The translations under genes were made by a program, and so were the position numbers. A stretch of 64,000 nt of DNA from NCBI RefSeq assembly GCF_963921235.1, contig NC_086107.1, forward strand, positions 93,560,001 to 93,624,000, given 5' to 3'. This document shows, piece by piece, positions 3,527 to 62,710 of the stretch. Each line of letters begins with the position of its first letter. The stretch's first letter is position 1. Below the pieces are notes generated by a model. It was not told the DNA's origin, searched no databases, and worked only from the letters and a program-made list of their open reading frames with translations. The stretch is from Mobula hypostoma. Lineage: Eukaryota.

Positions 3527-4180
3527 GCAGGTCATTCTTAGCCTTGGCCATTCGGCTCTATAATGAGTCCACCTATAGCCAGGGAAGTGATGACCACCTC
3601 CTGTTAGACTGCTATTAACTTCTGTCTAAATTCTGTTTAGCTCTGCTTACCACACTCTACAAACACAGACACACTATGCAATCCCTCCATCACTTCTTAT
3701 CTGGACGATGTGAATGTGCACCCATATTAATTACTGTAATATTATAGTAATTCTTGCACTACCATCTTATCTTTGTGAAGTTGGAAATCTTGTAAATCTT
3801 GTCACCTTTGACTTGTAAGTCTTGTACATCTTATTTTTAAGGTACACACATCAAAGTTGCTGGTGAATGCAGCAGGCCAGGCAGCAACTCTAGGAAGAGG
3901 TACAGTCAAAGTTTTGGGCCAAGACCCTTCGTCAGGACTGTAACATCGACTGTCGACTGTACCTCTTCCTAGAGATGCTGCCTGGTCTGCTGCGTTCACC
4001 AACAACTTTGATGTGTGTTGCTTGAATTTCCAGCATCTGCAGATTTCCTCGTGTTTTTATTTTTAAGGTAACTTATTTTTTATTCTTTCTTACTTCTCTT
4101 CTAATATTTGTATATCTGCGCACTTGTAATGCTAGTGACATTGTAATTTCCTTTGGGATCAATAAACTATCTATCTATCA
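3527..4180 (+). mobile_element. Rex1/Babar-type LINE 3' end, interrupted by a hammerhead element
   Basis: RSF...AIRLYN terminal ORF motif, aataaa and (ctat)n tail. Same family as 58627-59045 (-). Confidence 0.65.
3845..4056. mobile_element. Penelope-type short element with inverted arms and a degenerate hammerhead; 14-bp TSD
   Basis: Arms 3845-3907 and 3955-4017 are inverted repeats. TSD ttatttttaaggta at 3831-3844 and 4057-4070. Confidence 0.75.
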
Positions 4181-6390: not shown

Positions 6391-6699
6391 CCATAAAGGG
6401 CAGTACTAAATAAGTAATACTGAGAACACGAGTTGCAGTGCCCATAGGTTGGGGAATCAGTTCAGCGAGGTGAGTGACGTTATCCATGCTGTTTCAGGAG
6501 CCTGATGGACGAAGGTTAATAACTGTTCCTGAATCCCAATAGTAGTAGTGAGAGGAGAGCATGGCCTGGCATTCAAATAAGCTGCTTTGTCCTGCACAGT
6601 ATCAAGCTTCTTGAGTGACAGTGAAGCTCCTATTATTTAGGTAACTGGAGAATATCCCAGCACACTCATGACTTTTACCTTGTAAGATTAAGATTAAAG

Positions 6700-11902: not shown

Positions 11903-13129
11903 GCTGAATGGTAGCAGGTTTAGAATCTGAATGGTCTGCTCCTGCTCCTGCTCCTGCTTCCTATGTTCGTGTTAAGTTCCTCCCAAAATAGCAACAGGCA
12001 GCTTGTATTTACTTAACACCTTTAGTGCAATAACCATTCCAAAGTGTTCCACTGATACTTTCAGCAAACAAAAATTGACACTAAACCACATTAAGGGAAA
12101 TTAAGGCAGGTGACCTTAAGGCTTGGTCAAAGAGGAGACACAAGAGATTTTGCAAAGGCTGGAAATGTGAGGCAACACTAAAAAAGGGTCAGCACAGCAA
12201 CGCAGCAGTTAGCGCAACGCTTTCGCAGTGCCGCTGACCCGTGTTCAATTCCCGCCGCCATCTGTAAGGTGTTTGTGCATCCTCCCCGTGATCAGTTTCC
12301 ACCCACGTTCCAAAGACATATGGGTTAGGGGGTGAATGAAATCCTCCAGGCGGGTGTGGAAGGCAAGCGAGCGTTCAGCAGCGTCCACCAGCCTCTGGCT
12401 CGCTGCCACTGGAGGAAGGTGTCTGCGTGTGGCGGTCACTCGCCTGCTGCCTCCCAGGGAAGGTCCTTGCATTCCTCTCTCTCTCTCAATGCTGTCGGCA
12501 GACGGTGCCGTAGCAATGTTCAATCATCACGGATTGTAGATCTGGACTCTCAGATTTATGATATGTTCTAGTCCTGGTCGCTCTTTTTTGTTACTATTTT
12601 TGAGTGACTCTTGAATCGAGGTGGCCTATGGATAATGAACACTGAGCTGAATTGTACTGAAATTCACCTTTTGATTTTGTGTTTTTACTTGTCTTTTTTC
12701 TTGCCATTTGCCTGATTTTTTTGCGCGCGTGGGAGGGGGGGTTGATGTTTTTCTTTGAACAGATTGGTTCCATAGTTCATCTTTGTTTTGTGACTGTCTG
12801 TGAGGAAGACGAATTTCAGGGTTGTATACTGCCTATGTACTTCAATAATAAATACTTTGAACTTTTGAGTAGGTTAATTGGTCATATTGGTGTGGTTGGG
12901 CAACACAGACCTGTTGGGCCAGAAGGGTGGTTACTGTACTGTATCTCTAAAACAGGGGTTCCCAACTTTTTTTATGCCCTGGACCTCTACCATTAACCAT
13001 GGATCCAAGGTTGGGAACCCCTGCTCTAAATAAACAAATAAATAACGCTGGAGGGTCTCAGGGTGTCGGGCAGCATCTGTGGAAGGAAGTAAGCAGTCGA
13101 TGTTTTGGGTTGAGACTCTTAGTGCCCAC

Positions 13130-15545
13130 ACAGTATACGGAGATGAATTTGCAGCACAGTTACAGATTGGCATGTATTATGTTGTGGGCATCACTGAATC
13201 ATGGTTGATAGAAGGTTATAGATGGGAGCTTAATGTCCAAGGATATACATTGTATCAAAAGGACAGGGAGGAAGGCAGAGGGGGTGCCATTGCTCTGTTG
13301 GTAAAAAAAATTAAATCATTAGAAAGAGGTGACATAGGGTCAGAAGGTGTTGAGTATTCCAGATACAGCGAAGGAACTACAATAGTAAAAAGACCCTGAT
13401 GGGAATTATATACAAACCCTCAAACCGTAGTAAGGATGTGCTCTACAAATTACGAACGGGGACAGAAAATGCATGCCAAAAGGGCAATGTTAAAGTAGTC
13501 AAGGGGGATTTCAATATGCAGGTAGATTGGGAAAATTAGGTTGCTGCTGGATTTCAAGAGGGGGAATTTCTAGAATGCTTATGAGGTGGCTTTTTAGAGC
13601 AGCTCGTGGTTGAGCCCACTTACTAGGGGATCAGCTATTCTTGATTGGGTGTTGTGTAATGATCCAGAATTGATTAGCGAGCTTAAAGTAAAAGAACCCT
13701 TAGGGGCGTGCGATCATACTATGACCAAATTCACCCTGAATTTCAAGAAAGAGAAGCTAAAGGCAGATGTATCAGTATTACAGTGGAGTAACAGGAATTA
13801 CAGAGGCATGAGAGAGGAGTTGGCCAGAATTGATTGGAAGAGAACAATGGCTGGAATTTCTGGAAGCAATTTGGAAGGCTTGGGATATATACATCTCAAA
13901 GAGGAATAAGTATTCTGAAGGCCAGATGACAACCGTGGCTAGCAAGAGAAGTCAAAGCCAACATAAGAGTCAAAGCCAACATAAAAGCCAAAGAGAGGCA
14001 AAAAATTAGTGGGAAGTTAGAAGACTGGGAAGCTTTCAAATACCAACAGAAGACAACTAAAAAAGTCATTAAGAAGGTAAAGATGGAATACAAAAGTAAG
14101 CTAACCAATAATACTAAAGAAAATACCTAAAGTATCTTCAGATACATAAACAGTAAAAGGGAGGCAAGAGTGGACATTGGACTGCTGGAAAACGATGCTG
14201 GAAAGGTAGTAATGGGGACAAGGAAATGGCGGACAAACTGAATAAGTATTTTTCACTGTGGAGGACACTAGCAGTACAGTGGAAGCTCCAGGTGTCGGGG
14301 GGGGGGGGGGGTCATGAAGTGTGCAAAGTTACCATTACTAGGGAGAAGGTTCTTGGGAAACTGAAAGGTCTGAAGATAGATAAGTCACCTGGACCAGATA
14401 GATGTACACCACGGGGTTCTGAAAGAGGTGGCTGAAGGGATTGTGGAGGCATTAGTAATGATCTTTCAAGAATCACCAGATTCTGGAATGGTTCAAGAAG
14501 ACTGGAAAATTGCATATGTCACTCCACTCTTCAAGAAGGAAGAAAGGAAACTATAGGCCAGTTAGTCTGACCTTAGTAGTTGCGAAGATGTTGGAGTCAA
14601 TCGTTAGGAATGTGGTTTCAGGGTACTTGGAAGCACATGATAATAGGCCATAGTCAGGACGATTTCCTCAAGGGAAAATCATGCCTGACAAATCTATTGG
14701 AATTTTTTGAAGAAATAACAAGCAGGATAGACAAAGGAGAATCAGTTGATATTGTGAATTTGGGTTTTCAGAAGGCCTTTGACAAGATGCCACACATAAG
14801 GCTGCTTAACAAGCTATGAGCCCATTACATGAATGACTTCAGCATGGATAAAGCAGTGGCTGATTGGCAGGAGGCAGAGTGGGAATAAAGGGAGCTTTTT
14901 CTGGTTGTTTGCCAGTGACTAGTGGCGTTCCACAGGGGTCTCTGTTGGAACCGATTCTTTTTACATTATATGTTAATGATTTGGATGATTGGCCGCACTT
15001 GGAATAGCGTGAGCAGTTTTTGGCCCCTTATCTTAGAAAGGATGTGCAGAAATTGGAGAGGGTTCAAAGGAGGTTCTCAAAAATGATTCCAGGTTTGAAC
15101 GGCTTGTCATGAAGAAAGGTTGACAGCTCTGGGCCTATATTCACTGGAATTCAGAAGAATGAGGAGTGCCTCATTGAAACCTATCAAATGGTGAAATGCT
15201 TTGATGGAGTGGATGTGGAGAGGTTGTTTCCAATGGAGGAAGAGTCTAAGACCAGAGGACACAGTCTCAGAATACAGGGGCATCCTTTTAGAATGGAGAT
15301 GAGGGGGAATTTCTTTAGCCAGACTGGTGAATCTGTGGAATTTGTTACCACAGGCGGCCATGGAGGTGAAGTCTGTATGTACACTTAAGGCAGAAGTTGA
15401 TAGATTCTTGATTGGTCAGGGCATGAAGGGACACAGGGAGAAGGCAGGAGGTTGGGGTTGAGAGGCAAAATGAATCAGCCATGATGAAATGGTGGAACAG
15501 ACTTGATGGACCAAATGGCCTAATTCTGGTCCTATGTCTTGTGGC
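13130..15545 (+). mobile_element. CR1 LINE ORF2 (APE endonuclease to 3' tail), decayed with internal deletion
   Basis: VVGITESWL, AILDWVLCN, KSPGPD and GKSCLTNLLEFFEE motifs. Jump from the RT core to RPHLEY at ~14990. CR1 tail at ~15540. Confidence 0.9.
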
Positions 15546-18700: not shown

Positions 18701-20208
18701 TTCAGAAGTATTTTCTTGTACCACACAAGCACCAACTTCTAAGTTCTCTTCGCATCATCACACCTTTGTCTTCTGGAAACCACCTGCTGTACTCTACATG
18801 CTGGGCATATAAAATAAATATATTATGTAATGAAAGGAGTTAGCACATCAGGTAACGCATCTGGAAAGGAAAAATAGGGTCCACGATCAAAATAAAACAA
18901 ATTGGGAGTATTTTCAAAGTTCAAAGTATATACATATCTCCATATGTTACCCTGAGATTTGCTAGCATTCACAGTAGAAAAAAAGAAATGCAATAAAATC
19001 AATTAAAAAACTGCACACAAAGATAAATAAATCTGCAGGGAAAAACTCTTAACAGAATGTGGAATAAAGTGTTGCAGTTACAAAGTACTGTGCCGGTAGG
19101 TAATAAGGTACAAGGTTATAAATTGATCGATTGTGAGTTCAAGATTCTGTCTTGTCATATTAGGAGACTGATCAATATTGCAACAACAGGCAGAACTGCA
19201 TCCTGAGGAAAAATGAAAACTGAAGGATTTGGAATGTGGGAGAGTTCCTTCATCTTTTCAGCTGCTTCCTCTCGGTTTTCACTATCAGCCATGCAAGTCT
19301 TGGGTGAAGATTCAGGAATACCGTTGCACACAGATGTTGAAGGATCCTTCATTGCTATTTCTGCAACAATTTTGTTTGACCAGTCAGGGTTGTTAGGTGC
19401 GGGGGAGTAAAATTAGGATGGAGATGAGGAGGAACTGCTTTTCCCAAAGAGTGGTGTATCTATGGAAGTCTCTGCCCAATGAAGCAGTAGAGGCTACCTC
19501 AGTAAATATATTTAAGACAAGTTTGGATAGATGTTTGCATAGTAGGGGAATTAAGGGTTATGGGGAAAAGGCAGGTTGGTGGAGATGAGTCCATGGTCAG
19601 ATCAGCCATGATCTTATTGAATGGTGGAGCAGGCTCGACGGGCCGGATGACTTACCCTACTCCTATTTCTTAAGTTTTTATATTTATCCCTAAGCTAATT
19701 CCCCAAACCTGGAGGATCAGTGATCCAGGTCTCTACCCTTTGACCTGTTTGGCATAGGTGACCTGACTAAGAGCCAAAGCATAAAGCCCTAACTCCAACC
19801 AGCATAGCCCTCCGGGTCATCGAGGCACACCAAACTCCAAATTGAGGTTCTTGTCCACTTGGAGGATGAGGGGTATAGATAGGATATACTCAAGTAGACC
19901 TTTTCCCCCACTGAGGTTGGATGCGACCATATGGAACCCTGAGAATCGCAGGCATTCACAGTAGAACAAAGAAATACAGTAATATCGGTTAAGAACTACA
20001 CAAAAAGACTGACAAACAACCAATGCGTAAAGTAAGACAAACTGTGCAAATACAGAAAAAATAATAAAGAAAGAATTAGACAAATAATACTGAGAACATG
20101 AGTGGTGGAGTCCTTGAAAGTGAGTCCATAGGTTGTGGAATCAGTGAATGATGTTATCCACACTGGTTCAGGAGCCCGATGGTTGAAGGGTAATAACAGT
20201 TCCTGAAC

Positions 20209-20337
20209 AACAGGAATTCTGCAGATGCTGGAAATTCAAGCAACACACGTCAAAGTTGCTGGTGAATGCAGCAGGCCAGGCAGCATCTCTAGGAAGAGGT
20301 ACAGTCGACGTTTCAGGCCGAGACCCTTCGTCAGGAC
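20209..20337 (-). mobile_element. 129-bp Penelope-type element with intact hammerhead motif; 15-bp TSD
   Basis: TSD taacagttcctgaac at 20194-20208 and 20338-20352. Inserted into a Rex1-type 3' end. Confidence 0.8.
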
Positions 20338-20338
20338 T
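20303..20338 (-). ncRNA. Minimal type-I hammerhead ribozyme motif
   Basis: Minus strand reads AGUC-CUGACGA-A-GGGU(CUCG)GCCU-GAAA-CG-UC-GACU: stem I AGUC/GACU, conserved core, stem II, palindromic ACGU stem III. Confidence 0.65.
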
Positions 20339-22791
20339 AACAGTTCCTGAACCCGGTAGTGTGGAACCTAAGGTTCCTGTAGCTTCTGCCCGATGGTGGT
20401 AGTGAGAAGAGAGCATGGCCTTGCAAAAACACATAGGTAGAAGTCAAACAAGATGTAAAAAGTTGTATGGGAACGTGCAACAAGCCCTCTTCCAATTATA
20501 AACAAAAATGATGTAAATACTCAGTAAGTCAGGCATTACTTCTGGAGAGAGAGTGAAAATGGGGATTAATGTTTGAAACTAATGATCTTTCATCATAGCT
20601 AGGAATCTGCAGATGAAATAGAAACATAGAAAAACCTACAGCAAGATACCGGCTCTTTGGCCCACAATGCTGTGCCGAACATGTTACAGAGAAATGGGGA
20701 GTGGTGGTGAGTTGTGTGTTTAATCAAAATGCACTAAAAAAAACTCAATAATTTGCAACAGAAAATGCTGGAAATGTTTAGCAAGTTATAGAGCACCTCT
20801 GGAGAAAAAAAATAATGTTTTACATGAATGGAATGCTCTCTTGTCAGGACTAATAAAACTTAGTAATCAAATATGTTGAACGCTTAAGCACAAGGGGGAA
20901 GGCGGGGCTGACAACAAAAAAACTGTGGCAGCACGATAAATTGGTTTACTATTGTGGCATATACCTAGGTACAGAGAACAACTTTGTTTAGCATTCCATC
21001 TACGCAGCGCATTGTGGTAGTCCAATGAGGTTCAGTAGAGTAGCGGCTAGCATAATGCGATTACAGCGCCAGCGATCTGCGTTCAGTTCCACCACTGTCT
21101 GTAAGGAGTTTGTACCTTCTCCCTATGACCATGTAGATTTCCCCTGGGTGCTCCAGTTTCCTCCCACATTCCAAAGACATACGGTTTAGAAGGTTAATTT
21201 TTTTTCACATGGGTGTACTGGGGTGATGTGGGCTCGTTGGGCCCATAAGCCAAGGTGTATGGACAGGAATGAAATGGAGGGTTATGGGCTGAGTGCAGGT
21301 AGATGGGACTAGGTGAGAGTAAGCGTTCGGCACGGACTAGAAGGGCCGAGATGTCCTGTTTCCACGCTGAAATTGTTATATGGTTTTATATGGCTATAAC
21401 GTTGCTGTATCTCTAAATAAATCTACAAGGGAAAACTATAACAGAATGCAGAATAAAGTGTTATAGTTACAAAATAAGTGCAGTTCTGCTAAGTAATAAT
21501 GTGCAAGGTTATAAAGAGATCGATTGTGAGTTCAAGATTCTATCTTGTCTTACTAGGAGACTGTTCAATATTTCATCAATAGTCAGAACACATTCTGCAT
21601 CTAAATCATTTTGTGTTTTATCTAGAAGGACTTGATGGGGATAAAGATGCTTTATTCTCTAAAGGAGCCTGAAGACACATCTACTTAACTGTGAATAATT
21701 TGTTATGATAGCTTCGTTTTCCTGTATTATTTATTTTATTCAGAGATACAGAGAGAACAGCGCCTTCCAGCCTACTGAGCCACACTGCCCAGCAACCTGG
21801 ATTTCTGGACAGGGAAATTTATCTTGTATCTAATCCATACTGTTCCTGTTCTGGGCATGTTTGAAGATAGGTCTGGTCTTCCCTCTGTCTTTAATCTCTG
21901 ATATATTTCATGGTATAGTGCAGCGATACCATCATGGGGACTAGCTTCGCCAGTGTCGATGACACCTTCAAAAGGCAATGTCTTTAAAAAGTGGCGTCCA
22001 TCATTAAGGACCCCCATCACTCAGGATATGCCCTCTTCTCATTGTTACCATCAAGGAGGAGGTAGAGGAAGGAGCCTGAAGGCACTCACTGATTCGGAAC
22101 AGCCTTTTCCCCCTCTGCCATTAGATTTCTGAACTATTTATTTTCTGAACTGGTATATTTTCTTCTTGCACTGTACTGTTGCTGCAAGACAACAAGATTC
22201 ACGACACACGTCAATGATATTGAACCAGATGCTAATTCTGACTTCATATATGCCGGGTTTCTAAGGGGGCCTTTGGGAGAGAGACAGAAATGGTGCTCTG
22301 TCCAGTTTCTGTGACCCCGCCAGGAACAAGAAGTGCACATCTCTTAAGGATTTCTCTCTGTATCCTGGGAAAAATGGAAACTGAAGGATTTGGAATGTGT
22401 GTGTGAGGGGTTGGGCGGGGGGGAATTAATCTATCCAGTGGCCTTTTCCTTCCAGCAACCTGGCAACTGATTGCTTCATTTTGTAAGGAGAAGGGACAGG
22501 GTGATTCAGGCTAATGCCAGCTCAATACATCAGCAATGGAATATAGGCGATTGAGAAAACGGAAGCCATTCTAAATATAAATGCTGCAATTCCTCAGACA
22601 GTTTGGCATGCGTCACACGCTTGAGAGGTTGACAGCCATCAGAGCCTGCTAACACAGGCAGTGGGGGTCATCGCAGAGCAGAATAAAATATAGACCAATT
22701 GACGCTTTGATAAAATATAGGCTGTAATAAACTTGTAAAATGAGAAAAGACTTTAGATCAGATAATGTGGATGACAGCTAGTCTCATCGGA

Positions 22792-35819: not shown

Positions 35820-36075
35820 GACACAAGAGATTCTGCAGATGATCGAAATCCAGACTAACACACACAAAATGCTGGAGGAACTCAGCAGGTTTGACAGCAG
35901 CTATGGTGAGGAATAAAGAACTGATGTTTTGGGCCAAGATCCTTCATCAGGACACCAGCATTTCAGGCCAAGACCCTTCAGCTGAAGGATCCTAATGAGC
36001 AGTCTTGGCTCGAAACATCAGCACTTTATTCCTCTCTGTAGGTACTGCCTTACCTGCTGAGTTCCCCCAGCGTTG
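35820..36075. mobile_element. Hammerhead-family Penelope-type element, inverted arms, degenerate
   Basis: acacaagagattctgcagatg...ggaactcagcagg arm, ccttcatcaggac cores, mirrored arm ending cctgctgagttcccccagc. Confidence 0.65.
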
Positions 36076-38370: not shown

Positions 38371-40389
38371 ATGGGAGTGATGATGATGATGATGGCGAAG
38401 GCACTTCCAACACAGCGGATGAGACTCAACGTCGGCAGGACTGTTAGCCGCCTGGTGCTGGTGACCCTGTGGACCCTGTCCCTACTGGGGGGGCTGGCGC
38501 AGCCGCACGTCTGCCCCAAGGGCTGCTCCTGCAGTAACCAGTTCAGCAAGGTGATCTGCACCCGCTACGACTTGCGGGAGGTGCCGAGCGACATCTCCAC
38601 CAACACGCGCTACTTGAACCTGCAGGAGAACGCCATCCAGGTGATCAAGGCGGACACCTTCAAGCAGCTGCGGCACCTGGAGATACTGCAGCTCAGCAAG
38701 AACCTGATCCGCCACGTGGAGGTCGGCGCCTTCAACGGCCTCACTAGCCTCAACACGCTGGAGCTCTTCGACAACCGGCTGACCACGGTGCCGAGCGGCG
38801 CCTTCGAGTACCTGTCCAAGCTGCGGGAGCTCTGGCTGCGGAACAACCCCATCGAGAGCATCCCGTCGTACGCCTTCAACCGGGTGCCGTCGCTGCGGCG
38901 CCTGGACCTGGGCGAGCTCAAGAAGCTGGAGTACATCTCGGACGCGGCGTTCGAGGGGCTGGTCAACCTGCGCTACCTCAACCTGGGCATGTGCAACCTG
39001 GCCGAGATTCCCAACCTGACGCCGCTGCTACGGTTGGAGGAGCTGGAACTGTCGGGCAACCGGCTGGAGGTGATCCAGCCCGGCTCCTTCCAGGGGCTAA
39101 CCAGTCTCCGCAAGCTGTGGCTGATGCACGCCCAGGTGCAGCTGATCGAGCGCAACGCCTTCGACGACCTGCAGTCGCTGGAGGAGCTGAACCTCTCGCA
39201 CAATAACCTGACTTCGCTGCCGCACGACCTCTTCACGCCGCTGCACCGCCTGGAGCGGGTGCACCTCAACCACAACCCGTGGCACTGCAACTGCGACGTG
39301 CTCTGGCTCAGCTGGTGGCTCAAGGAGACGGTGCCCAGCAACACCACCTGCTGCGCCCGCTGCCACTCGCCGCCCGCCCTCAAGGCGCGCTACCTGGGCG
39401 AGCTGGACCAGAGCCACTTCACCTGCTACGCGCCCGTCATCGTGGAGCCGCCCGCCGACCTCAACGTGACCGAGGGCATGGCGGCCGAGCTCAAGTGCCG
39501 CGCCGCCACCTCCATGACGTCCGTCAACTGGATGACCCCCAACGGCACGCTGATGACCCACGGCTCGTACCGGGTACGCATCTCGGTGCTGCACGACGGC
39601 ACGCTCAACTTCACCAATGTGACGGTGCAGGACACTGGGCTCTACACCTGCCTGGTCAGTAACTCGGCGGGGAACGCCACCGCCTCAGCCACCCTCAATG
39701 TGTCGGCGGCCGACGGCGGTGGTCCGGCGGGCAGCGGCGGCGGCGGCGCTGCGGGCGGCTCCTCGGGCGGCTCCTCCAACAGCTACAGCTACTTCACCAC
39801 AGTGACGGTGGAGACGGTGGAGGTGGTGGACGAGCCCCGCTCCACCGAGCACCAGGCCGGGCCCACCCCCTCCGGGGGCTGGGAGGTCTCCGCCGCCTAC
39901 TCATCCTCATCGTCCTCCTCCTCCTCCGCCACGTCGCTGGCGCCGCAGTCGACGGAGCGCGCCTTCACCGTGCCGCTGGCCACCGAGGCGGGAGACGGGA
40001 TGCTGGCTGGCCTCGACGACGTGATGAAGACCACCAAGATCATCATCGGCTGCTTCGTGGCCATCACCTTCCTCGCGGCCGTCATGCTGGTCGCCTTCTA
40101 CAAGCTGCGCAAACAGCACCAGCTCCACAAGCACCGGGGCCAGGCCCGCGCTGTCGAGATCATCAACGTGGAGGACGAGCTGGCGGGCTCGGCGCCCGCC
40201 GACAGCTGCCTGGCGCTGCCCGCTGCCGACCGCGAGCACCTCAACCACTACGCGGCCGCCTACAAGGCGCACTACGGCAACAATGCGGCCGCGCTGAACT
40301 GCACCAAAAACCCACTCCACAACTCCGTGCACGAACCGCTCCTCTTCAAGTCCGCCTCCAAAGAGAACGTGCAAGAGACGCAGATCTGA
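38371..40389 (+). CDS. LRRC4B: Leucine-rich repeat-containing protein 4B (netrin-G ligand-3, NGL-3), single coding exon, 672 aa
   Basis: Domain order: signal peptide, LRRNT ([16 protein letters not shown]), LRR array, LRRCT ([30 protein letters not shown]), Ig domain, Gly/Ser-rich stalk, TM ([21 protein letters not shown]) and C-terminal PDZ ligand [37 protein letters not shown] and KQHQLHKH match the LRRC4B paralogue as I know it rather than LRRC4/LRRC4C. The true start may be one of the tandem ATGs at 38371-38394. Confidence 0.93.
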
Positions 40390-44350: not shown

Positions 44351-46502
44351 TCCATAACATCTCGGTTTAATAATATGTCACTCTTGTGGCAATTTCCATT
44401 TTGCAAGTGTTTTGTAAATTGATCTTTATAGTGGAGGACAAGGATGAAGTGCCAGATAAACAATATCACAATGCAGAAATAAAGAGATTCTAATGAAAGT
44501 GCACCAAGTGGAGGAATTAGCGAAACTGAAGTTTGACACATTTTCACCATTTTATTGGCTCAACTCAATAGTTCAAAGTAAATTTTTATCAGTGCCTATA
44601 TGTCACCATATACTATGCTGAGATTCATTATCTTGCAGGCATTCACAGTAGAACAAAGAAATACAATAGAATCAATGAAAAACTACACACAAACAATATG
44701 CAGAACAAGTTGCCACTCTGGGTTAATAAAGGAGCTGCTGAGAATACTACGAATACTAATGAGAATATCGACCAAGGTATTGACCCTTTGGATTGGATTA
44801 CTGCTATTGTCACCCCAAGATTTAAGAGTGTTGATTGGGAATAGAAGTAGGCCATTCAGGTCTAACCCCCACTATTAACTAAAATCAGAGCTGATCTGCC
44901 AGTAACTTCAGTTCTGCATTCCAGTCTACCTCAGAATCAGACTCAGGCTTAATATCACCATGATGTGCAGTGAAATTTGTTGTTTTGCAGCATCATTACA
45001 TAAAAAAAATCATAAGTTACAGTAAGAAATATATACACTACATAGGTGTGTATATTATCAAGGTTGGGTCGGGGAAGATTGCTTCAAAATGCGATGCCTT
45101 CAAAAGGCAATCATTAAAGGCTCCCATCACCCAGGACAATCCCCCTTCACTTTATTGCTATCAGAAAGGAGGTACAGGAGCTTGAAAATACCCACTCAAT
45201 ATTTTAGGATATAGATTAGATTAGATTCAACTTTATTGTCATTGTGCCGTACAGATACAAAGCCAATGAAATGCAATTAGCATCTGACCAGAAGTGCAAA
45301 AGAATAGTATTATTTACAAAATAACTGCGAATAAAAAGTAAGTGCTACAGCACACAAATATAAAAGTACTGAGACAGTCCAATATGGGTGCAATACTGCT
45401 TAGCGCTGTGATGTGAGGTTCAGCAGGGTCACAGCCTTAGGGAAGAAGCTCTTCCTGTGCCTGTTGGTGCAGGAGTGGAGGCTCCTGTAGCGCCTATCGG
45501 ATGGGAGGAGAGTAAAAAGTCCTGGGTTCGGGTGAGATGCATCCTTGATAATGCTTCTTCGCCCTGCCCAGGCAGCGTCAACAGTGGGCAATTGGGTGCG
45601 GATAATCCGCTGGGCAGTTTTCACCACCTGCTGGAGTGTTGCAGTCCGATACAGGACAATTGCCGTATATATAATAAACAGTGCAAAAAGAGAGCATAAA
45701 TGATGTAATTTTCATGCTCCATTCAGAAATCTGATGGAAGAGGAAGCTGTTGCTAAAATATTGAGTGTGTGTACCTGCTCTTTGATGGTAGCAATGAGAA
45801 GAGGACATGTCCTGGGTGATGGGAGTCCTTAATGATGGATGCTGCCTTTTGAAACAATCTTTCCCCCCAATCCAGTCTTAGTAGTCAAGTATATAATCTA
45901 CCTCTGCCCTTAAGATATTCCAAGTCTCTGTTTCTACCACCCTTAAAGAAAGTGACCTTCTAGGACTCAACCCTCCAGGAAAAAATTCTTTATCTCAACA
46001 CGGTAATAGTGCAATCATTCCAGTTGAATATGATGCTCTCCTAAGGGCTTGCCTACTGGTGCTTTGTCAGGTGACTGTAGAGGCAGATTCAGGATGCACC
46101 TATTCTGGTGCAGCGTGGGCAAGAATGTGGTGTCTGTGATTAGTGGCTAGGTCTCAACCCTCTCTTAAATGGGCAGCCTCTTATTTTTAAACATAAGCTC
46201 TTAGTTTACACTCTGTGGCAAGAAGAAACATTCTCTTAACACCCACCCGTTCAAGACTCCATCTGGCCTCAGCTGTTTCAATCAAGTTCCTTCTAATTCT
46301 TCTTAAATTCCAAGTTACAAGTTTAGTCTTTCCAACTTTATAGGACAGGGCACATACTCCAAGTGATAGTCTTAGAAAATCTCTTCGGAACTGCTTCCAA
46401 CATATTAATGATCTGAAATAAGCAGATGAAGAATAGACATAGTACTCAAGATATAGTCTCATCAATAACATAAAAGATCCTACATATGCTGAAGTCTTGA
46501 GC

Positions 46503-46880
46503 AACACTCACAAAATGCTGACAGAACTCAGTAGGTCAGGCAGTAGCAATGTTTCAGGCTGCGACCCTTCATCAGGACTGGAAAGGAAGGGAAAGAAGCC
46601 AGAATAAGGTGGGGAGAGGAGAAGGAGTACATGCTGGCACCTGATCTCACCTACGTATCTCTTCCCAGCTTCTTACTTCCCCTTTCCATCCACCCACCTT
46701 CTCCCTCACCTCTCACCTGTCAACTTGTGAGCCTTTGCCTCCTCCTACCTTTTTATTCTGGCTTCAGCCCTCTTTCTTTCCAGTCCTGATGAAGTGTCTC
46801 AGCCCAAAACTTCAACTATTTATTCTCTTCCATAGATGCTGCCTGATTTGCTGAGTTCCGCTGGTATTTTGTGTTTCGCT
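46503..46880. mobile_element. Hammerhead-family Penelope-type element, inverted arms
   Basis: Minus core at ~46548-46580 (cagtcctgatgaagggtcgcagcctgaaac) and plus core at 46781-46815. Confidence 0.7.
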
Positions 46881-49777: not shown

Positions 49778-51450
49778 AAATGCTGCTGGAACTCATCAGG
49801 TCAGGCAGCATCTATAGAAGGGAATAAGCAGTTGACGTTTTGGGTTATAACTCTTCATCCGGACTGGAAAGGAAGGAGGAAGAAGGAAAGTAGGGGGAGG
49901 GGTTGGGCAGAGGGAGGAGTACAAGACACCAGGTGATAGAAGAGATCAGGTGAGGAAGAATGTGAGGTGGGTATGGGTGGGGGCGGGGATGAAGTAAGAA
50001 GCTGGAATGGGATAGGTGAAAGAGGTAAAAGGCTGAAGAAGAAGGAATCTGATAGGAGAGGAGAGTGGACCATGGGAGAACCTTTAGATTCATCACAGTT
50101 CAGTTCATCAGCCTTAATTTGCAAAAGGAAAATTATCCTAGTTTAAATGTTAAATAGATGACTAGAACATTCTTAGATAGTAGAGGAATACATACAAAAT
50201 ACTGGAGGAATTCAGCAGGTCAGGCAGCATCTATGGAGAGAAATAAAGAGTCAACATTTCAGGCTGAGGTCCTTCATTATTTTAGTCCAAGATTTTACTC
50301 CTTCAGCATCTCAGTCCAAGATAATACGTCAACTTTGTATTCCTCTCAGCATCAGTAGAATCTCTTGTGTTATGCTCATTGGACAGTATTTCCAATTAAC
50401 ATCTGTTCCACTTCACATTAGTAGAAAGAATTCGTGGAATGTGAGGCATTTTGCTGTCATTGGTGTAGAGAGAGTTGGTTAGGTAGTAACTGACAAAAAA
50501 AAAGATATTCTAGCATCAGTGGAAAGGAGTAAAGAGCTGATGTTGCCGCCAAGACCTTTCATCAGGACTAGAAAGAAAGGGGGAAGAAGCCAGAATAAGA
50601 AGGTGTTTGGAGGGGAAGGAGTATAATCTTGAAGGTGATAGGTGAAGCCAGGTGAGGGGGAAGGTAGATGACTCTTTATTCCTTTTCATAGCTGTTGCCT
50701 GGCCTGCCGAGTTCCTCCAGCATTTTGTGTGTGTTTCTCTGGATCTCCAGCATCTGCAGAACCTCTTTTGTTTATTATAGGTTTGTACTCATATTAACCT
50801 AACACCTTCCAGCTTGTACTACCTCCCCCACCTTCTTACTCTGTCTTCTGCAACTCCCACCCCCTACTCCCCCTCCCTTTCCAGTTCTGATGAAGGGTAT
50901 CGGCCCAAAATATTGAGTATTTATTCTCCTCCATAAATCTTGCCTGACCAGGTGAGTTCCTCCAGCATTGTGTGTGTGTGTTGCTTTGGATTTCCAGCAA
51001 TACTTACTAAAGATTCTGAAGTTACTGAAGCAACAGAGAGCAGACAATAGATGGGAAATAGAAAGCTGAAAAGAGACATTGATGGATTGACAGATGGAGT
51101 TCAATATGGGGTGGTCTTCCTTCGACCTACGAAAGGTAGATCAGAAATTATTTTCTGAATAAAAGAAGGAATAGTTCAAATAGATAAATCACTATACCTG
51201 CTGGATAAGTACAAAGTACATTTTAAAAATGTAAAGAAAGGATAGTCTTTATTGCAAGAAGTACAAACCATCAAGAGACCGAAGATGCTGGGATCTGGAG
51301 CAACAAAGACTCTTCTGGAGGAACTCAGTAGGCTGGTTTGCATCTGTGGGATGGATTAACACACACAAAATGCTGGAGGAACTCAGCAGGTCAGGCAGCA
51401 TCTATGGAAAGGAATCTACAGTCGACATTTCAGGCTAAAGCCTTATTCTC
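49778..51450. mobile_element. Cluster of Penelope-type hammerhead-family relics
   Basis: Repeated ggaactcagcaggtcaggcagcatctatgg arms, purine-rich bodies, and cores at ~49835-49866, 50541-50570 and 50882-50915. Confidence 0.6.
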
Positions 51451-51819
51451 CCCGTAACCTTTAAATCCCTGTCTAAAAAAGAACCTATCAACCTCTGTTT
51501 TAAATATAGAATTAGATTCAAATTTATTACTTATCCCAACTCTCTGACTTCAAGTTCAATTTTAATCATCATTAAACTTGTCATTCACATGTAACAGCTC
51601 AATGAAACAATGTTTCTCTGGGGGCAAGGCACAAAACACAATACATACAGTCAGTTACACACAACACATATAGTTAAGACAGCACATACAGTGGCAAAAA
51701 AGAAATATTATTAACAATAATAATAACAGTAGCTCAAGTCCCTGAGTGGCATGGTCAATCTTCTATTCATGTTAATGCATTAGCCCCAACTCCATGTATC
51801 TTTATCCTATGAAAAAGTC

Positions 51820-55014: not shown

Positions 55015-57033
55015 ATAGTCATAGTCATAGTCATACTTTATTGATCCCGGGGGAAATTGGTTTTCGTTACAGTTGCACCATAAATAATTAAACAGTAATA
55101 AAACCATAAATAGTTAAATAGTAATATGTAAATTATGCCAGGAAATAAGTCCAGGACCAGCCTGTTGGCTCAGGGTGTCTGACCCTCCAAGGGAGGAGTT
55201 GTAAAGTTTGATGGCCACTGGCAGGAATGACTTCCTATGACGCACTGTGTTGCATCTCAGTGGAATGAGTCTCTGGCTGAATGTACTCCTGTGCCTAACC
55301 AGTACATTATGTAGTGGATAGGAGACATTGTCCAAGATGGCATGCAACTTAGACAGCATCCCCTTTTCAGACACCACCGTCAGAGAGTCCAGTTCCATCC
55401 CCACAACATCACTGGCCTTACGAATGAGTTTGTTGATTCTGTTGGTGTCTGCTACCCTCAGCCTGCTGCCCCAGCACACAACAGCAAACATGATAGCACT
55501 GGCCACCACAGACTCGTAGAACATCCTCAGCATCGTCCGGCAGATGTTAAAGGATCTCAGTCTCCTCAGGAAATAGAGACAGCTCTGACCCTTCTTGTAG
55601 ACAGCCTCAGTGTACTTTGACCAGTCCAGTTTATTGTCAATTTGTATCCCCAGGTATTTGTGATGTCTACACTGACCCCTCTGGATGGAAACAGGGGTCA
55701 CCGGTACCTTAGCTCTCCTCAGGTCTACCACCAGCTCCTTAGTCTTTTTCACATTAAGCTGCAGATAATTCTGTTCACACCATGTGACAAAGTTTCCTAC
55801 TGTAGCCCTGTACTCAGCCTCATCTCCCTTGCTGATGCATCCAACAATGGCAGAGTCATCAGAAAACTTCTGAAGATGACAAGACTCTGTGCAGTAGTTG
55901 AAGTCTGAGGTGTAATTGGTGAAGAGAAAGGGAGACAAGACAGTCCCCTGTGGAGCCTCAGTGCTGCTGATCACTCTGTCGGACACACAGTGTTGCAAGC
56001 ACACGTACTGTGGTCTGCCAGTCAGGTAATCAAGAATCCATGACACCAGGAAAGCATCCACCTGCATCGCTGTCAGCTTCTCCCCCAGCAGAGCAGTGCG
56101 GATGGTGTTGAACGCACTGGAGAAGTCAAAAAACATGACCCTCACAGTGCTCGTTGGCTTGTCCAGGTGGGCGTAGACACAGTTCAGCAGGTAGACGATG
56201 GCATCTTCAACTCCTAGTCGGGGCTCGTAGGCAAACTGTAGGGGATCTAAGTGTGGCCTGACCATAGGCCGGAGCAGCTCCAGAAGAAGTCTCTCCAGGG
56301 TCTTCATGATGTGGGAGGTCAATGCCACCGGTCTGTAGTCATTGAGACCGCTGGGGCGCGGCGTCTTCGGCACAGGGACGAGGCAGGACGTCTTCCACAG
56401 TACAGGAACCCTCTGGAGCCTCAGGCTCAGGTTGAAGACATGGCGAAGTACTCCACATAGCTGAGGGGCACAGGCTTTGAGCACCCTGGTACTGACACCA
56501 TCCGGTCCTGCAGCCTTGTTTGGGTTGAGACGTTTCAGCTGTCTTCTCACCTGTTCAGCTGTGAAGCCCACCATGTGGTTTCGTGCGGGGAAGGGGTATA
56601 GTCATGAGAGCAGGGTGGGAGACTGTGAGGAGGGGTAGGAGGGGAGAGTGAAATATGTGTTGGTTGGGGGCCGACAACAGATGACTCATGTGGGGGATGG
56701 GCAGGGGCCACAATGTCAAATCTGTTAAAGAACAGGTTAAGTTCGTTGGCCCTGTCCACACTGCCTTCAGCTCCTCTGTTGCTAGTTTGCCGGAATCCAG
56801 CGATGGTCCTCATCCCCCTCCAGACCTCTCTCATGTTGTTCTGCTGGAGTTTCCACTCAAGCTTCCTCCTGTACCTGTCTTTAGCCTCCCTGATCCTGGC
56901 TTTCAGGTCCCTCTGTATTGCCCTCAGCTCCTCCCTATTTCCACCTCTAAACACCCTCTTTTTAGCATTCAGGATGTCCTTAATGTCCTTTGTTACCCAT
57001 GGCTTGTTATTTGAATAACAAAGGATAGTTCTT
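55015..57033 (-). mobile_element. Rex1/Babar LINE, 5'-truncated, RT ORF largely open (55114-56574)
   Basis: KAAGPDG, YRPVALTSHIMK, DPLQFAY, FFDFSSAFNTI, PQGTVLSPFLF, FSDD motifs. (gtcata)n tail. Inserted in a CR1 tail. Confidence 0.92.
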
Positions 57034-59984: not shown

Positions 59985-62710
59985 CAGGCTATTCTAGACT
60001 GGGTATTGAGCAATGAGGAAGGGTTAATTAGCAATCTTGTTGTGAGAGGCCCCTTGGGTAAGAGTGACCATAATATGGTGGAATTCTTCATTAAGATAGA
60101 GAGTGACATAGTTAATTCAGAAACTAAGGTTCTGAACTTAAAGAAGGGTAACTTTGAAGGGATGAGGCGTGAATTAGCTAAGATAGACTGGCAAATGACA
60201 CTTAAAGGGTTGACGATGGATATGCAATGGCAAGCATTTAAAGATCACATGGATGAACTGCAACAATTGTTCATCCCAGTTTAGCAAAAGAATAAATCAG
60301 GGAAGGTAGCGCACCCGTGGCTGACAAGAGAAATTAGGGATAGTATCAATTCCAAAGAAGAAGCATACAAATTAGCCAGAAAAAGCGGCTCACCTGAGGA
60401 CTGGGAGAAATTCAAAGTCCAGCAGAGGAGGACAAAGGGCTTAATTAGGAAAGGGATTAACCTTAACCCGTGTCAGAAAGGTGGAACGTCTGTTATTTAT
60501 AATACTATCATGAAACGTAGGATAGCTCCATTCGATAAGATTAGGTCCAATTGGGAAAAGGAATTGGGCTTTACTATTTTGGTGGATGACTGGGCGCATA
60601 TTTTACAACGAGTCAATACTTCCTCTATCTGTTCCAAACATTCCCGAACTCAATTTGAAGTTGTTCATAGAACACATATGTCTAAAGATAAATTAGCTCG
60701 TTTTTATTCTCATATTAACCCTCTTTGTGATAGATGTCATGGGGAGATAGCTTCCTTATCTCATATGTTTTGGTCCTGTCCTACTCTGGAAACTTTTTGG
60801 AAAGACATTTTTAATATTATCTCAAAGGAAAAGGAAAAAAGATTATGAGGGAAAACTGGCAGGGAACATAAAAACTGACTGTAAAAGCTTTTATAGATAT
60901 GTGAAAAGAAAAAGATTACTTAAGACAAATGTAGGTCCCCTACAGACAGAAACAGGTGAATTGATTATGGGGAGCAAGGACATGGCAGACCAATTGAATA
61001 ACTACTTTGGTTCTGTCTTCACTAAGGAGGACATAAATAATCTTCTGGAAATAGTAGGGGACAGAGGGTCTAGTGAAATGGAGGAACTGAGGGAAATACA
61101 TGTTAGTAGGGAAGTGGTGTTAGGTAAATTAAAGGGATTAAAGGTAGATAAATCCCCAGGGTCAGATGGTCTGCATCCCAGAGTGCTTAAGGAAGTAGCC
61201 CAAGAAATAGTGGATGCATTAGTGATAATTTTTCAAAACTCTTTAGATTCTGGACTAGTTCCTGAGGATAGGAGAGTGGCTAAAAAAGGAGGGAGAGAGA
61301 AACTGGGGAATTATAGACCGGTTAGCCTAACATCGGTGGTGGGGAAAATGCTAGAGTCAGTTATCAAAAATGTGATAACAGCACATTTGGAAAGTGATGA
61401 AATTATCGGAAAAAGTCAGCATGGATTTGTGAAAGGAAAATCATGTCTGACGAATCTCATAGAATTTTTTGAGGATGTAACTAGTAAAGTGGATAGGGGA
61501 GAACCAGTGGATGTGGTATATTTGGATTTTCAAAAGGCTTTTGACAAGGTCCCACACAGGATATTAGTGTGCATACTTAAAGCACACAGTATTGGGGGTA
61601 AGGTATTGATGTGGATAGAGAATTGGTTGGCAGACAGGAAGCAAAGAGTGCGAATAAACGGGACCTTTTCAGAATGGCAGGCAGTGACTAGTGGGGTACC
61701 GCAAGGCTCAGTGCTGGGACCCCAGTTGTTTACAATATATATTAATGACTTAGATGAGGGAATTAAATGCAGCATCTCCAAGTTTGCAGATGACACGAAG
61801 CTGGGCGGCAGTGTTAGCTGTGAGGAGGATGCTAAGAGGATGCAGGGTGACTTGGATAGGTTGGGTGAGTGGGCAAGTTCATGGCAGATGCAATTTAATG
61901 TGGATAAATGTGAGGTTATCCACTTTGGTGGCAAAAACAGGAAAACAGATTATTATCTGAATGGTGGCCAATTAGGAAAAGGGGAGGTGCAACGAGACCT
62001 GGGTGTCATTATACACCAGTCATTGAAAGTGGGCATGCAGGTACAGCAGGCGGTGAAAAAGGTGAATGGTATGCTGGCATTCATAGCAAGAGGATTCGAG
62101 TACAGGAGCAAGGAGGTACTACTGCAGTTGTACAAGGCCTTGGTGAGACCACACCTGGAGTATTGTGTGCAGTTTTGGTCCCCTAATCTGAGGAAAGACA
62201 TTCTTGCCATAGAGGGAGTACAAAGAAGGTTCACCAGATTGATTCCTGGGATGGCAGGACTTTTATATGATGAAAGACTGGATCGACTGGGCTTATACTC
62301 ATTGGAATTTAGAAGATTGAGGGGGGATCTTATTGAAACATATAAAATCCTAAAGGGATTGGACAGGCTAGATGAAGCAAGATTGTTCCCGATGTTGGGG
62401 AAGTCCATAACGAGGAGTCACAGTTTGAGGATAAAGGGGAAGCCTTTTAGGACCGAGATTAGGTAAAACTTCTTCACACAGAGAGTGGTGAATCTGTGGA
62501 ATTCTCTGCCACAGGAAACAGTTGAGGCCAGTACATTCGCTATATTTAAGAGGGAGTTAGATATGGCCCTTGTGGCTAAAGGGATCAGGGGGTATGGAGG
62601 GAAGGCTGGTACAGGATTCTGAGTTGGATGATCAGCCATGATCATACTGAATGGTGGTGCAGGCTCGAAGGGCCAAATAGCCTACTCCTGCACCTATTTT
62701 CTATGTTTCT
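59985..62710 (+). mobile_element. Young CR1 LINE, 5'-truncated, RT ORF open over 521 aa (60901-62466)
   Basis: YRPVSLTS, GKSCLTNL, VYLDFQKAFDKV, GVPQGSVLGP, FADD, RPHLEYC motifs. Tail tttctatgtttct. aaaca repeat at 59961-59965 and 62711-62715. Confidence 0.95.
60457..60824 (+). mobile_element. L1-clade ORF2 C-terminal (zf-RVT/CCHC) internal fragment inserted in CR1
   Basis: WEKELG...QFEVVHRTH...CDRC...SLSHMFWSCPTLETFW. Confidence 0.8.

What the first reader, a model, noticed from the sequence alone, without database searches (positions are those of the whole stretch)
20194..20352. 129-bp mobile unit that is essentially a hammerhead ribozyme plus tail, with a perfect 15-bp TSD
Seen: the minus strand reads AGUC CUGACGA A GGGU-CUCG-GCCU GAAA CG UC GACU, which has every catalytic-core nucleotide of a type-I hammerhead, a paired stem I and a stem II. 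The unit is flanked by the exact duplication taacagttcctgaac, and its 5' boundary coincides with stem I. Established: Penelope-like elements carry minimal hammerheads whose palindromic stem III can only form in a dimer. Inference: this is a recently mobile non-autonomous ribozyme-bearing retro-element, lying antisense in the presumed LRRC4B intron/upstream region.
Basis: partly seen in the sequence, partly recalled or inferred. Interest (0 to 1): 0.72.

Follow-up and report, generated by a model that had tools for sequence, protein, structure and literature searches.

The report
Truncated Penelope retroelement copy with hammerhead
The 129-base insert is the cut-short tail end of a very abundant Penelope-like jumping gene, and its hammerhead ribozyme motif is the kind already known from such elements, so it is real but ordinary.

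Summary
On the minus strand, 20339-20302 carries every core position of a minimal type I hammerhead, and an exact 15-nt direct repeat flanks a 129-bp insert. Three paralogous uninterrupted copies of the target repeat in the same window carry the 15-mer only once.

The insert is not a discrete 129-bp mobile unit. In other genomic copies the homology continues upstream of the hammerhead, through about 300 nt of untranslated region, into a reverse-transcriptase plus GIY-YIG-endonuclease reading frame.

One tandem array (L068) shows 3.5-kb units ordered endonuclease end, hammerhead, 935-codon open frame. That is the pseudo-LTR layout of Penelope-like elements (PLEs).

The 3' ends of copies are fixed and the 5' ends vary. 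18 of 30 copies carry an inverted partner that lacks the last ~30 nt (the "tail"). Target duplications of 12-16 bp are typical.

The exact 31-nt hammerhead occurs 39,897 times in this 3.5-Gb genome.

The motif matches the published PLE min-HHR: no helix III, an unpaired base after A9, and a palindromic ACGU. It differs in having a G10.1-U11.1 wobble pair.

Cleavage was not tested. This solitary copy is probably inert. The kind is already known (Cervera and De la Pena 2014).

The parts
20194..20208 (.). Left copy of the target-site duplication (TAACAGTTCCTGAAC). Its last 3 nt could equally be the element's 3' end.
   Evidence: Exact repeat. Single copy in paralogous uninterrupted sites. Family 3' ends read ...CCTGTTGTT(TG...).
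20209..20337 (-). 5'-truncated insertion of a Penelope-like element. It holds the last ~130 nt of the insertion unit (at most 20206-20341).
   Evidence: 98-100% identical to 40 of 40 scored copies, from 939 first-look candidates. Other copies continue upstream into the PLE untranslated region and reading frame.
20302..20339 (-). Minimal type I hammerhead motif. Helix I 5' strand 20339-20335; core CUGACGA 20334-20328; unpaired A 20327; helix II GGGU/GCCU with loop CUCG 20326-20315; GAA 20314-20312; A15.1 C15.2 G16.2 U16.1 20311-20308; C17 20307; helix I 3' strand 20306-20302.
   Evidence: Read directly. The same motif sits in all three pseudo-LTRs of tandem array L068. The exact 31-mer occurs 39,897 times in the genome, control 0.
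20306..20307 (-). Predicted self-cleavage site, after C17 of GUC (20307) and before G1.1 (20306).
   Evidence: Inferred from the hammerhead numbering; not tested.
20209..20237 (-). 'Tail': the last ~30 nt of the insertion, missing from inverted partner copies and from the end of the tandem array.
   Evidence: Inverted partners end at element positions 94-104 of 129. Array L068 ends at position 100. This matches the 30-40-bp PLE tail (Craig 2021, passages; Frangieh 2024, main text).
20209..20249 (-). Stretch matching the start of the PLE's long open frame. 20246-20244 is GTG here, where array copy L068 has ATG.
   Evidence: In L068 the 935-codon frame opens at element position 89, with its first ATG at 92-94.
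20338..20352 (.). Right copy of the target-site duplication. Its first 4 nt (TAAC; GTTA on the minus strand) could equally be element sequence.
   Evidence: Contigs of other copies diverge from the window only beyond 20341 (table 7).

Best explanation
This is a dead-on-arrival, severely 5'-truncated copy of a young, very high-copy, autonomous Penelope-like retroelement (PLE).

The parent element is a 3.5-kb unit. It encodes a reverse transcriptase followed by a C-terminal GIY-YIG endonuclease. Between successive reading frames lies a pseudo-LTR that contains a minimal hammerhead.

How the copy arose:
- The endonuclease made staggered cuts about 12-16 bp apart in an older repeat. Shown by the duplications.
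- Reverse transcription started inside the RNA, about 100 nt downstream of the hammerhead cut site, in the first codons of the next unit's reading frame. Inferred from the variable 3' ends and from Frangieh 2024.
- The cDNA ran back across an uncleaved hammerhead and stopped about 4 nt upstream of it. The boundary is shown; the cause is inferred.
- The ends were joined using 3-4 nt of microhomology. Inferred.

The hammerhead came along as part of the copied tail. In the parent RNA it probably acts, if at all, as a protein-assisted double hammerhead between two copies. This solitary copy has no intact partner nearby and is most likely inert.
For: 1. Continuity with an autonomous element.
- Homology of other copies runs upstream of the hammerhead for up to at least 660 nt. 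It reaches a frame ending ...GMNIDFSNF* that contains a GIY...YIGET stretch.
- In L068 the endonuclease frame matches Pfam GIY-YIG at 23.6 bits, above the 22.6 cut-off (E 6.3e-5). The 935-codon frame matches RVT_1 at E 4.7e-5.

2. Pseudo-LTR layout.
- L068 holds tandem units 3515-3517 bp apart that are 99.4% identical. A hammerhead sits between each endonuclease end and the next open frame.
- 8 of 20 loci fetched with the start of the reading frame carry the 129-nt segment about 770 nt upstream in the same orientation.

3. Fixed 3' ends and variable 5' ends in 30 of 30 loci.

4. An inverted partner abuts the 5' end in 18 of 30 loci. In the 10 whose partner reaches the element's 3' part, the outer end lies at element positions 94-104, so the tail is missing.

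5. Duplications of 12-16 nt flank 13 of 24 insertions examined. 8 of those 13 enclose an inverted-plus-direct pair, so each pair is one insertion event.

6. Abundance.
- The exact hammerhead 31-mer occurs 39,897 times.
- A 20-mer just downstream occurs 65,653 times.
- The older CUGAUGA...CCCGAAACGUC type occurs 5,425 times, against 8 for the reversed control.

7. The motif has the published PLE min-HHR features (Cervera and De la Pena 2014, main text read). These are no helix III, a 4-5-bp helix I, an unpaired base between A9 and 10.1, and palindromic 15.2-16.2. That paper also reports motifs mostly as single copies ascribed to truncated PLEs, and dual motifs on opposite strands.
Against: - The RVT_1 matches are below Pfam's gathering score, and the PLE clade (Penelope/Poseidon, Neptune, Nematis) was not assigned.
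- The young family replaces the G10.1-C11.1 pair, which the 2014 paper calls highly conserved, with G-U.
- No Rfam hammerhead model matches.
- The nearest-neighbour energy of the double-hammerhead pairing (-12.7 kcal/mol) is far above the dimer optimum (-32.3) and two free monomers (-24.0). The monomer optimum pairs GACG of the core with CGUC at the cut site.
- No compensatory double change appeared in helix II in my hand tally of the 100 listed older-type motifs. 22 have a change in the three G-C pairs, and 5 of those keep a wobble pair.
- In the sample biased towards full coverage of the 129-nt query, 14 of 30 copies end between 34 nt upstream and 10 nt downstream of the hammerhead start. 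A local excess of ends is therefore not fully excluded.
- Cleavage and expression were not tested.
Confidence: 0.9

Rival explanations
1. A discrete non-autonomous 'hammerhead plus tail' retroelement of about 129 bp (a SINE-like or retrozyme-like family), mobilised in trans by PLE proteins.
For: - 8 of 30 sampled copies begin within -11 to +8 nt of the hammerhead start.
- By raw word counts, up to 21% of copies (65,653 minus 51,828) end between element positions -12 and +40.
- A 2026 preprint (abstract and passages seen) argues that animal retrozymes derive from PLE pseudo-LTRs.
Against: - The ends form a continuous series into the reading frame.
- The density of ends per nt is about the same across the hammerhead (about 260) and upstream of it (about 215).
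- The sample of 30 was chosen by full coverage of the 129-nt query, so it is biased.
- The copy here is solitary.
- Among the first 100 listed places of the exact motif, only 2 direct-orientation neighbours lie under 2 kb apart.
- No separate head or promoter is present in the 129 nt.
Confidence: 0.05
2. The same PLE origin, but the short copy is a full-length cDNA of a short RNA. The transcript would begin at a pseudo-LTR start site just upstream of the hammerhead and be copied from the first internal reverse-transcription start site, instead of arising by premature termination on a long RNA.
For: - 6 of 30 copies begin 21-34 nt upstream of the hammerhead and 8 more begin within -11 to +8.
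- Reverse transcription starts internally near the pseudo-LTR/ORF junction in an Anolis PLE, and RNA-seq coverage is raised there (Frangieh 2024, main text).
Against: - The word counts show no step at the hammerhead.
- The ends are spread over more than 40 nt.
- The transcription start site of this family is unknown, and no RNA data could be had.
Confidence: 0.1
3. A chance hammerhead-like string with no link to ribozymes.
For: - No Rfam match.
- Monomer fold z = -0.94.
- A minimal descriptor is permissive.
Against: - The motif sits at the position in a PLE pseudo-LTR where min-HHRs are published.
- It shares their non-descriptor features (the unpaired base after A9 and the palindromic ACGU).
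- The older form occurs 5,425 times against 8 in the reversed control.
Confidence: 0.01

Closest known systems
Minimal hammerheads (min-HHR) in the pseudo-LTRs of metazoan Penelope-like elements (Cervera and De la Pena 2014, PMC4209133)
   Same: - Type I topology with no helix III or loop 3.
- Palindromic A15.1-C15.2-G16.2-U16.1.
- Helix I of 4-5 bp.
- An unpaired base between A9 and 10.1.
- Location in the pseudo-LTR.
- Thousands of solitary copies ascribed to truncated PLEs.
- Pairs on opposite strands.
   Different: - Helix II is 4 bp here, against 7-8 bp in the schistosome families described.
- 10.1-11.1 is a G-U wobble in the young family, where the paper stresses a conserved G-C. The older family in this genome has G-C.
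- N7 is C, which makes GACG fully complementary to CGUC at the cut site.
Canonical endonuclease-positive PLE insertion units (Penelope/Poseidon, Neptune, Nematis), as summarised in Craig et al. 2021 (PMC8557442, passages) and studied in vitro for the Anolis element PAc (Frangieh et al. 2024, PMC11167929)
   Same: - RT followed by a C-terminal GIY-YIG endonuclease.
- Partial tandems forming pseudo-LTRs.
- Heavy 5' truncation.
- An adjacent inverted 5'-truncated copy.
- A 30-40-bp tail at one end.
- Insertion 3' ends lying inside the start of the reading frame, downstream of the hammerhead.
   Different: - In PAc the reading frame starts inside the hammerhead, at stem II. Here the long frame opens about 56 nt after the cut site.
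- The clade was not assigned here.
- The copy number is very high (tens of thousands).
Non-LTR retrozymes of animals (Cervera and De la Pena 2020, PMC7229834, abstract seen in the listing; Li et al. 2026 preprint, abstract and passages)
   Same: A type I hammerhead of PLE ancestry in non-coding repeats.
   Different: Retrozymes are short units in tandem that give circular RNAs. This copy is solitary, it is the truncated end of a coding element, and no short tandem array was seen.

Membership tests
Hammerhead ribozyme, PLE min-HHR type | Conserved core: C3 U4 G5 A6 N7 G8 A9, G12 A13 A14, A15.1-U16.1, H17 | tested here: met
   Read: CUGACGA at 20334-20328, GAA at 20314-20312, A-C-G-U at 20311-20308, and C17 at 20307.
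Hammerhead ribozyme, PLE min-HHR type | Helix I (4-5 bp) and helix II can form | tested here: met
   (U)AGUC/GACU(G) and GGGU/GCCU with loop CUCG. Both helices appear in the minimum-energy fold. Two of the four helix II pairs are wobbles.
Hammerhead ribozyme, PLE min-HHR type | Unpaired nucleotide between A9 and 10.1; no helix III; palindromic 15.2-16.2 | tested here: met
   A at 20327, and ACGU directly followed by C17. The features are listed in Cervera 2014.
Hammerhead ribozyme, PLE min-HHR type | Conserved G10.1-C11.1 pair | tested here: not met
   It is G-U in this copy and in the whole young family. It is G-C in the older family of the same genome.
Hammerhead ribozyme, PLE min-HHR type | Covariation in helices | tested here: inconclusive
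   Copies are 98-100% alike. My hand tally of the 100 listed older motifs gave 0 compensatory double changes and 5 wobble-preserving changes. Differences between the old and young forms lie at N7, 11.1 (C to U) and the outer helix I pair (C to U), and all three are tolerated.
Hammerhead ribozyme, PLE min-HHR type | Self-cleavage after H17, as monomer or dimer | not testable with these tools
   Energy models do not favour the double hammerhead. The literature reports low or protein-assisted activity.
Hammerhead ribozyme (Rfam models) | Match to a curated covariance model | tested here: not met
   No family at gathering score in the window, and no hammerhead family at E<=10 in 20000-20560. The models expect a helix III hairpin, so this says little about the min-HHR type.
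Penelope-like element (endonuclease-positive) | Reverse transcriptase with a C-terminal GIY-YIG endonuclease | tested here: met
   GIY-YIG 23.6 bits against a cut-off of 22.6. RVT_1 E 4.7e-5, below cut-off. Both are in L068 in that order. In L068 the two lie in different frames. Atlas look-alikes are RT clusters of rotifers and chordates; this is a lead only.
Penelope-like element (endonuclease-positive) | Pseudo-LTRs from partial tandem insertion, with the hammerhead inside | tested here: met
   L068 has three hammerhead segments 3515-3517 bp apart flanking two units. 8 of 20 loci have an upstream copy.
Penelope-like element (endonuclease-positive) | Heavy 5' truncation, adjacent inverted 5'-truncated copy, 30-40-bp tail at one end | tested here: met
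   18 of 30 loci have an inverted partner, and partners end about 25-35 nt short of the 3' end.
Non-LTR retrozyme | Short hammerhead-bearing units in head-to-tail tandem | tested here: not met
   One copy in the window. Tandem units seen are the 3.5-kb coding units.

The most novel reading that the evidence does not exclude
The most prolific PLE lineage of this genome carries a hammerhead variant (C at N7, G10.1-U11.1) whose sequence favours an inactive rod.

Every insertion that spans the motif (at least 51,828 by word count) was copied from RNA that had not been cut at that hammerhead.

The conserved motif may therefore serve mainly as a structural or protein-binding signal near the reverse-transcription start site, with cleavage suppressed or dispensable for transposition.
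Probability: 0.25. Interest if true: 0.45.

Novelty: already known. Interest (0 to 1): 0.15.

Why it matters
This shows that a striking 'ribozyme with a perfect target duplication' is a routine by-product of Penelope-like element activity. Similar catches in this genome (tens of thousands of copies) can be set aside.

A few points may be useful to PLE specialists:
- Clean natural evidence that inverted-plus-direct pairs are single insertion events, because they share a 13-16-nt duplication.
- Insertion 3' ends fall in two zones about 30 nt apart, inside the start of the reading frame. This parallels the in-vitro result for an Anolis element.
- A hugely successful family carries a G10.1-U11.1 hammerhead variant.

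Tried and rejected
- Rfam at gathering score and at E<=10 gave no hammerhead match.
- The monomer fold z-score is not significant.
- RNAcofold of two copies gives a generic extended duplex, not the double hammerhead.
- The look-up of sequencing runs listed no RNA holder. The runs are contigs of unknown kind, so nothing can be said about expression or about RNA ends at the cut site.
- Read laying on four coded runs showed only that the repeat is very abundant there and that other copies diverge beyond 20341. No contig bridged the unique flanks, so it gave no test of an empty allele.
- A 'bystander' sample of copies in the flanks of fetched loci, meant to give an unbiased 5'-end histogram, yielded only 9 usable copies and was dropped.
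- Three long copies fetched in search of a full-length element (L045-L047) were all 5'-truncated. L031 and L032 were also truncated.
Covariation between families therefore rests on the printed list alone.
- Dfam and Repbase could not be consulted.
- The search of earlier findings by place and by sequence returned nothing.
Full report
**What is in the sequence**

The window's minus strand from 20339 down to 20302 reads U-AGUC, CUGACGA, A, GGGU-CUCG-GCCU, GAA, A-C-G-U, C, GACU-G. In hammerhead numbering this gives:
- C3-A9
- one extra unpaired A
- a 4-bp helix II with a CUCG loop
- G12-A14
- A15.1, C15.2, G16.2, U16.1 with no loop between them
- C17
- a 4-5-bp helix I

The 15-mer TAACAGTTCCTGAAC is exact at 20194-20208 and 20338-20352. 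The target is itself an older repeat. Three of four paralogues examined in the same window (2720-2600 on the minus strand, 6465-6570, 1255-1375) run uninterrupted across the site with a single copy of the 15-mer and continue into the right-hand flank. The insertion and its target duplication are therefore real.

No Rfam family matched at gathering score in the window, and no hammerhead family matched at E<=10 on 20000-20560. The 45-nt monomer does not fold better than shuffles (z = -0.94).

**It is not a 129-bp unit**

The window lies in a 3.48-Gb genome. The 129-nt query gave 939 first-look candidates, and all 40 scored were 98-100% identical.

I oriented the 30 fetched loci on the hammerhead strand. 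The 3' end is fixed (...ATTCCTGTTG, then 0-15 further element bases), while homology upstream of the hammerhead continues for variable lengths. 14 copies end between 34 nt upstream and 10 nt downstream of the hammerhead start. Three end about 100-135 nt upstream. 13 run 270 to more than 660 nt further.

The upstream sequence is an untranslated region of about 300 nt. Before it lies a reading frame ending ...GMNIDFSNF* that contains ...YIGET...RLGDRFAEH....

**The parent is a Penelope-like element**

- *Protein domains.* Frames further upstream match RVT_1 (E 1.1e-5 and 4.7e-5, both below Pfam's cut-off). The C-terminal frame matches GIY-YIG (23.6 bits against a cut-off of 22.6 in L068; 21.7 bits in L044).
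- *Tandem array.* Locus L068 holds a tandem array, and two units 3515-3517 bp apart are 99.4% identical. The order is endonuclease end, untranslated region, hammerhead segment, 935-codon open frame, a change of frame, endonuclease frame, hammerhead segment, and so on. The array ends at element position 100 of the 129.
- *Upstream copies.* 8 of 20 loci fetched with the start of the reading frame carry the 129-nt segment about 770 nt upstream in the same orientation.
- *Frame start.* In L068 the long frame opens at element position 89, with its first ATG at 92-94. The window copy has GTG there. The last 40 nt of the insert thus correspond to the start of the next unit's reading frame.

This is the pseudo-LTR organisation of endonuclease-positive PLEs. 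In the Anolis element PAc, reverse transcription starts at two adjacent sites inside the RNA, within the first part of the reading frame, which explains the 30-40-bp 'tail' (Frangieh 2024, main text read).

**Other PLE hallmarks**

- *Inverted partners.* 18 of 30 loci have an inverted partial copy abutting the 5' end. Where that partner reaches the 3' part of the element (10 loci), its outer end lies at positions 94-104 of 129, so it lacks the last 25-35 nt.
- *Target duplications.* Duplications of 12-16 nt flank 13 of 24 insertions examined: 5 of 10 simple ones and 8 of 14 with an inverted partner. In each of those 13, at most 3.5% of random locus pairs gave an equally long match. One further insertion has 10 nt, and the rest have none that I could find. 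Because the duplication encloses the inverted-plus-direct pair, each pair is one insertion event.
- *A second example in the window.* An older pair lies at 3836-3939 (minus) and 3952-4056 (plus), with a 14-nt duplication.

Craig et al. 2021 list these features as characteristic of PLEs: heavy 5' truncation, partial tandems, an adjacent inverted 5'-truncated copy, a 30-40-bp tail at one end, and the hammerhead within pseudo-LTRs (passages seen).

**Abundance, and whether the 5' end at stem I is special**

| Exact word | Element positions | Count in genome | Reversed control |
|---|---|---|---|
| 31-nt hammerhead | within the motif | 39,897 | 0 |
| 20-mer | 40-59 | 65,653 | 0 |
| 21-mer across the hammerhead's 5' edge | -13 to +7 | 51,828 | 0 |
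| 20-mer | -110 to -91 | 31,004 | 0 |

The fall is about 260 copies per nt across the hammerhead and about 215 per nt over the next 97 nt upstream. I see no step at stem I. These counts are not corrected for polymorphism: in the 13 long copies aligned, 10-12 of 13 match each word exactly.

The window copy's boundaries are also blurred. GTTA at one end and GTT at the other match the element itself, and contigs of other copies diverge only beyond 20341. The duplication is therefore 8-15 nt.

**The hammerhead**

The motif fits the min-HHR that Cervera and De la Pena (2014) defined in PLE pseudo-LTRs (main text read):
- no helix III
- helix I of 4-5 bp
- an unpaired base between A9 and 10.1
- palindromic 15.2-16.2
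- thousands of solitary copies ascribed to truncated PLEs
- pairs on opposite strands

They found no cleavage of single motifs and only low cleavage of dimers. Frangieh et al. found cleavage only with the element's protein. They also found that cleavage was not needed for insertion in vitro, and they found no RNA-seq reads ending at the cut site.

The young family here departs from the published consensus at 10.1-11.1, where it has G-U. An older family in the same genome has G-C and CUGAUGA; its pattern occurs 5,425 times against 8 for the reversed control.

With C at N7, GACG in the core is fully complementary to CGUC at the cut site. The minimum-energy monomer uses that pairing (-12.0 kcal/mol, against -7.6 for helices I and II alone). 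The double-hammerhead pairing scores -12.7, against -32.3 for the best dimer. Such models ignore tertiary contacts.

Within-genome covariation is uninformative, because copies are near-identical. My hand tally of the 100 listed older motifs shows no compensatory double change.

No intact partner motif lies near this copy. The only other core match in the window (46575, minus strand) has lost its GUC, and the copy at 3935 has lost G12.

**Verdict**

The PLE link is correct. The 'mobile 129-bp unit' is not. The insert is a recent, dead-on-arrival 5'-truncated PLE copy, a kind already in print.

Earlier notes of this scan on other genomes reached the same reading. They are unchecked and are not independent evidence.

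Three things were recalled and not seen here: the paper of Lunse, Weinberg and Breaker (2017) on dimeric PLE hammerheads, the De la Pena and Flores (2001) report of an extra base after A9 (cited within the 2014 paper), and the sensitivity of hammerheads to changes at 10.1-11.1. Supplementary figures of the 2014 paper, which hold the vertebrate motif alignments, were not read.

Noticed in passing
window 3836-4056: An older (90-93% identical) PLE insertion made of an inverted copy (element positions 0-103) joined head-to-head to a direct copy (about 21-133). The whole is flanked by a 14-nt duplication, TTATTTTTAAGGTA. Its hammerhead has lost G12.
   Followed up: partly
window 38371-40389 (+): A 672-codon open frame with six LRR_8 stretches (E 1.8e-58) and an Ig I-set domain (E 1.5e-14), so an LRRC4/netrin-G-ligand-type gene. 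The insert lies 18 kb upstream on the opposite strand.
   Followed up: partly
window 55114-56601 (-) and 60751-62466 (+): Two long reverse-transcriptase frames of another retroelement type (RVT_1 E 2.9e-24 and 1.1e-34). The first also matches ALKBH8_N.
   Followed up: no
window 13049-13148, 35830-36004, 46491-46594, 46767-46853, 49781-49885, 50208-50300, 50488-50585, 50868-50999, 51358-51470: Decayed fragments (about 68-78% identical, one short stretch about 90%) of older PLE pseudo-LTRs with the CUGAUGA...GCCC form of the hammerhead. Many have GCCCAAAAC, meaning G12 was lost by CpG decay.
   Followed up: partly
L068 (G000:C12:173174001-173184000, minus strand): A tandem array of two complete 3.5-kb PLE units plus flanking partial ones, 99.4% identical. 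Each unit has a 935-codon open frame, with the endonuclease in a different, overlapping frame. The array ends without the tail.
   Followed up: partly
window 20100-20208 and 20338-20400; paralogues at 1255-1375, 2600-2720, 6465-6570: The insertion target is itself a dispersed repeat of unknown family, with at least three further copies in the window.
   Followed up: partly
window 20249 and 20267: In contigs of three coded runs (X1, X5, X15), nearly all copies of the repeat carry A at 20249 and C at 20267, where the window has G and T. The second difference is a CpG-to-CpA change in the window copy on the hammerhead strand.
   Followed up: no
G000 contig C1, first 6.9 Mb (listing): By my reading of the first 100 listed exact hammerhead 31-mers, about 20 sit in head-to-head (minus then plus) pairs 39 bp to 2.1 kb apart. 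Five pairs are under 100 bp apart.
   Followed up: no
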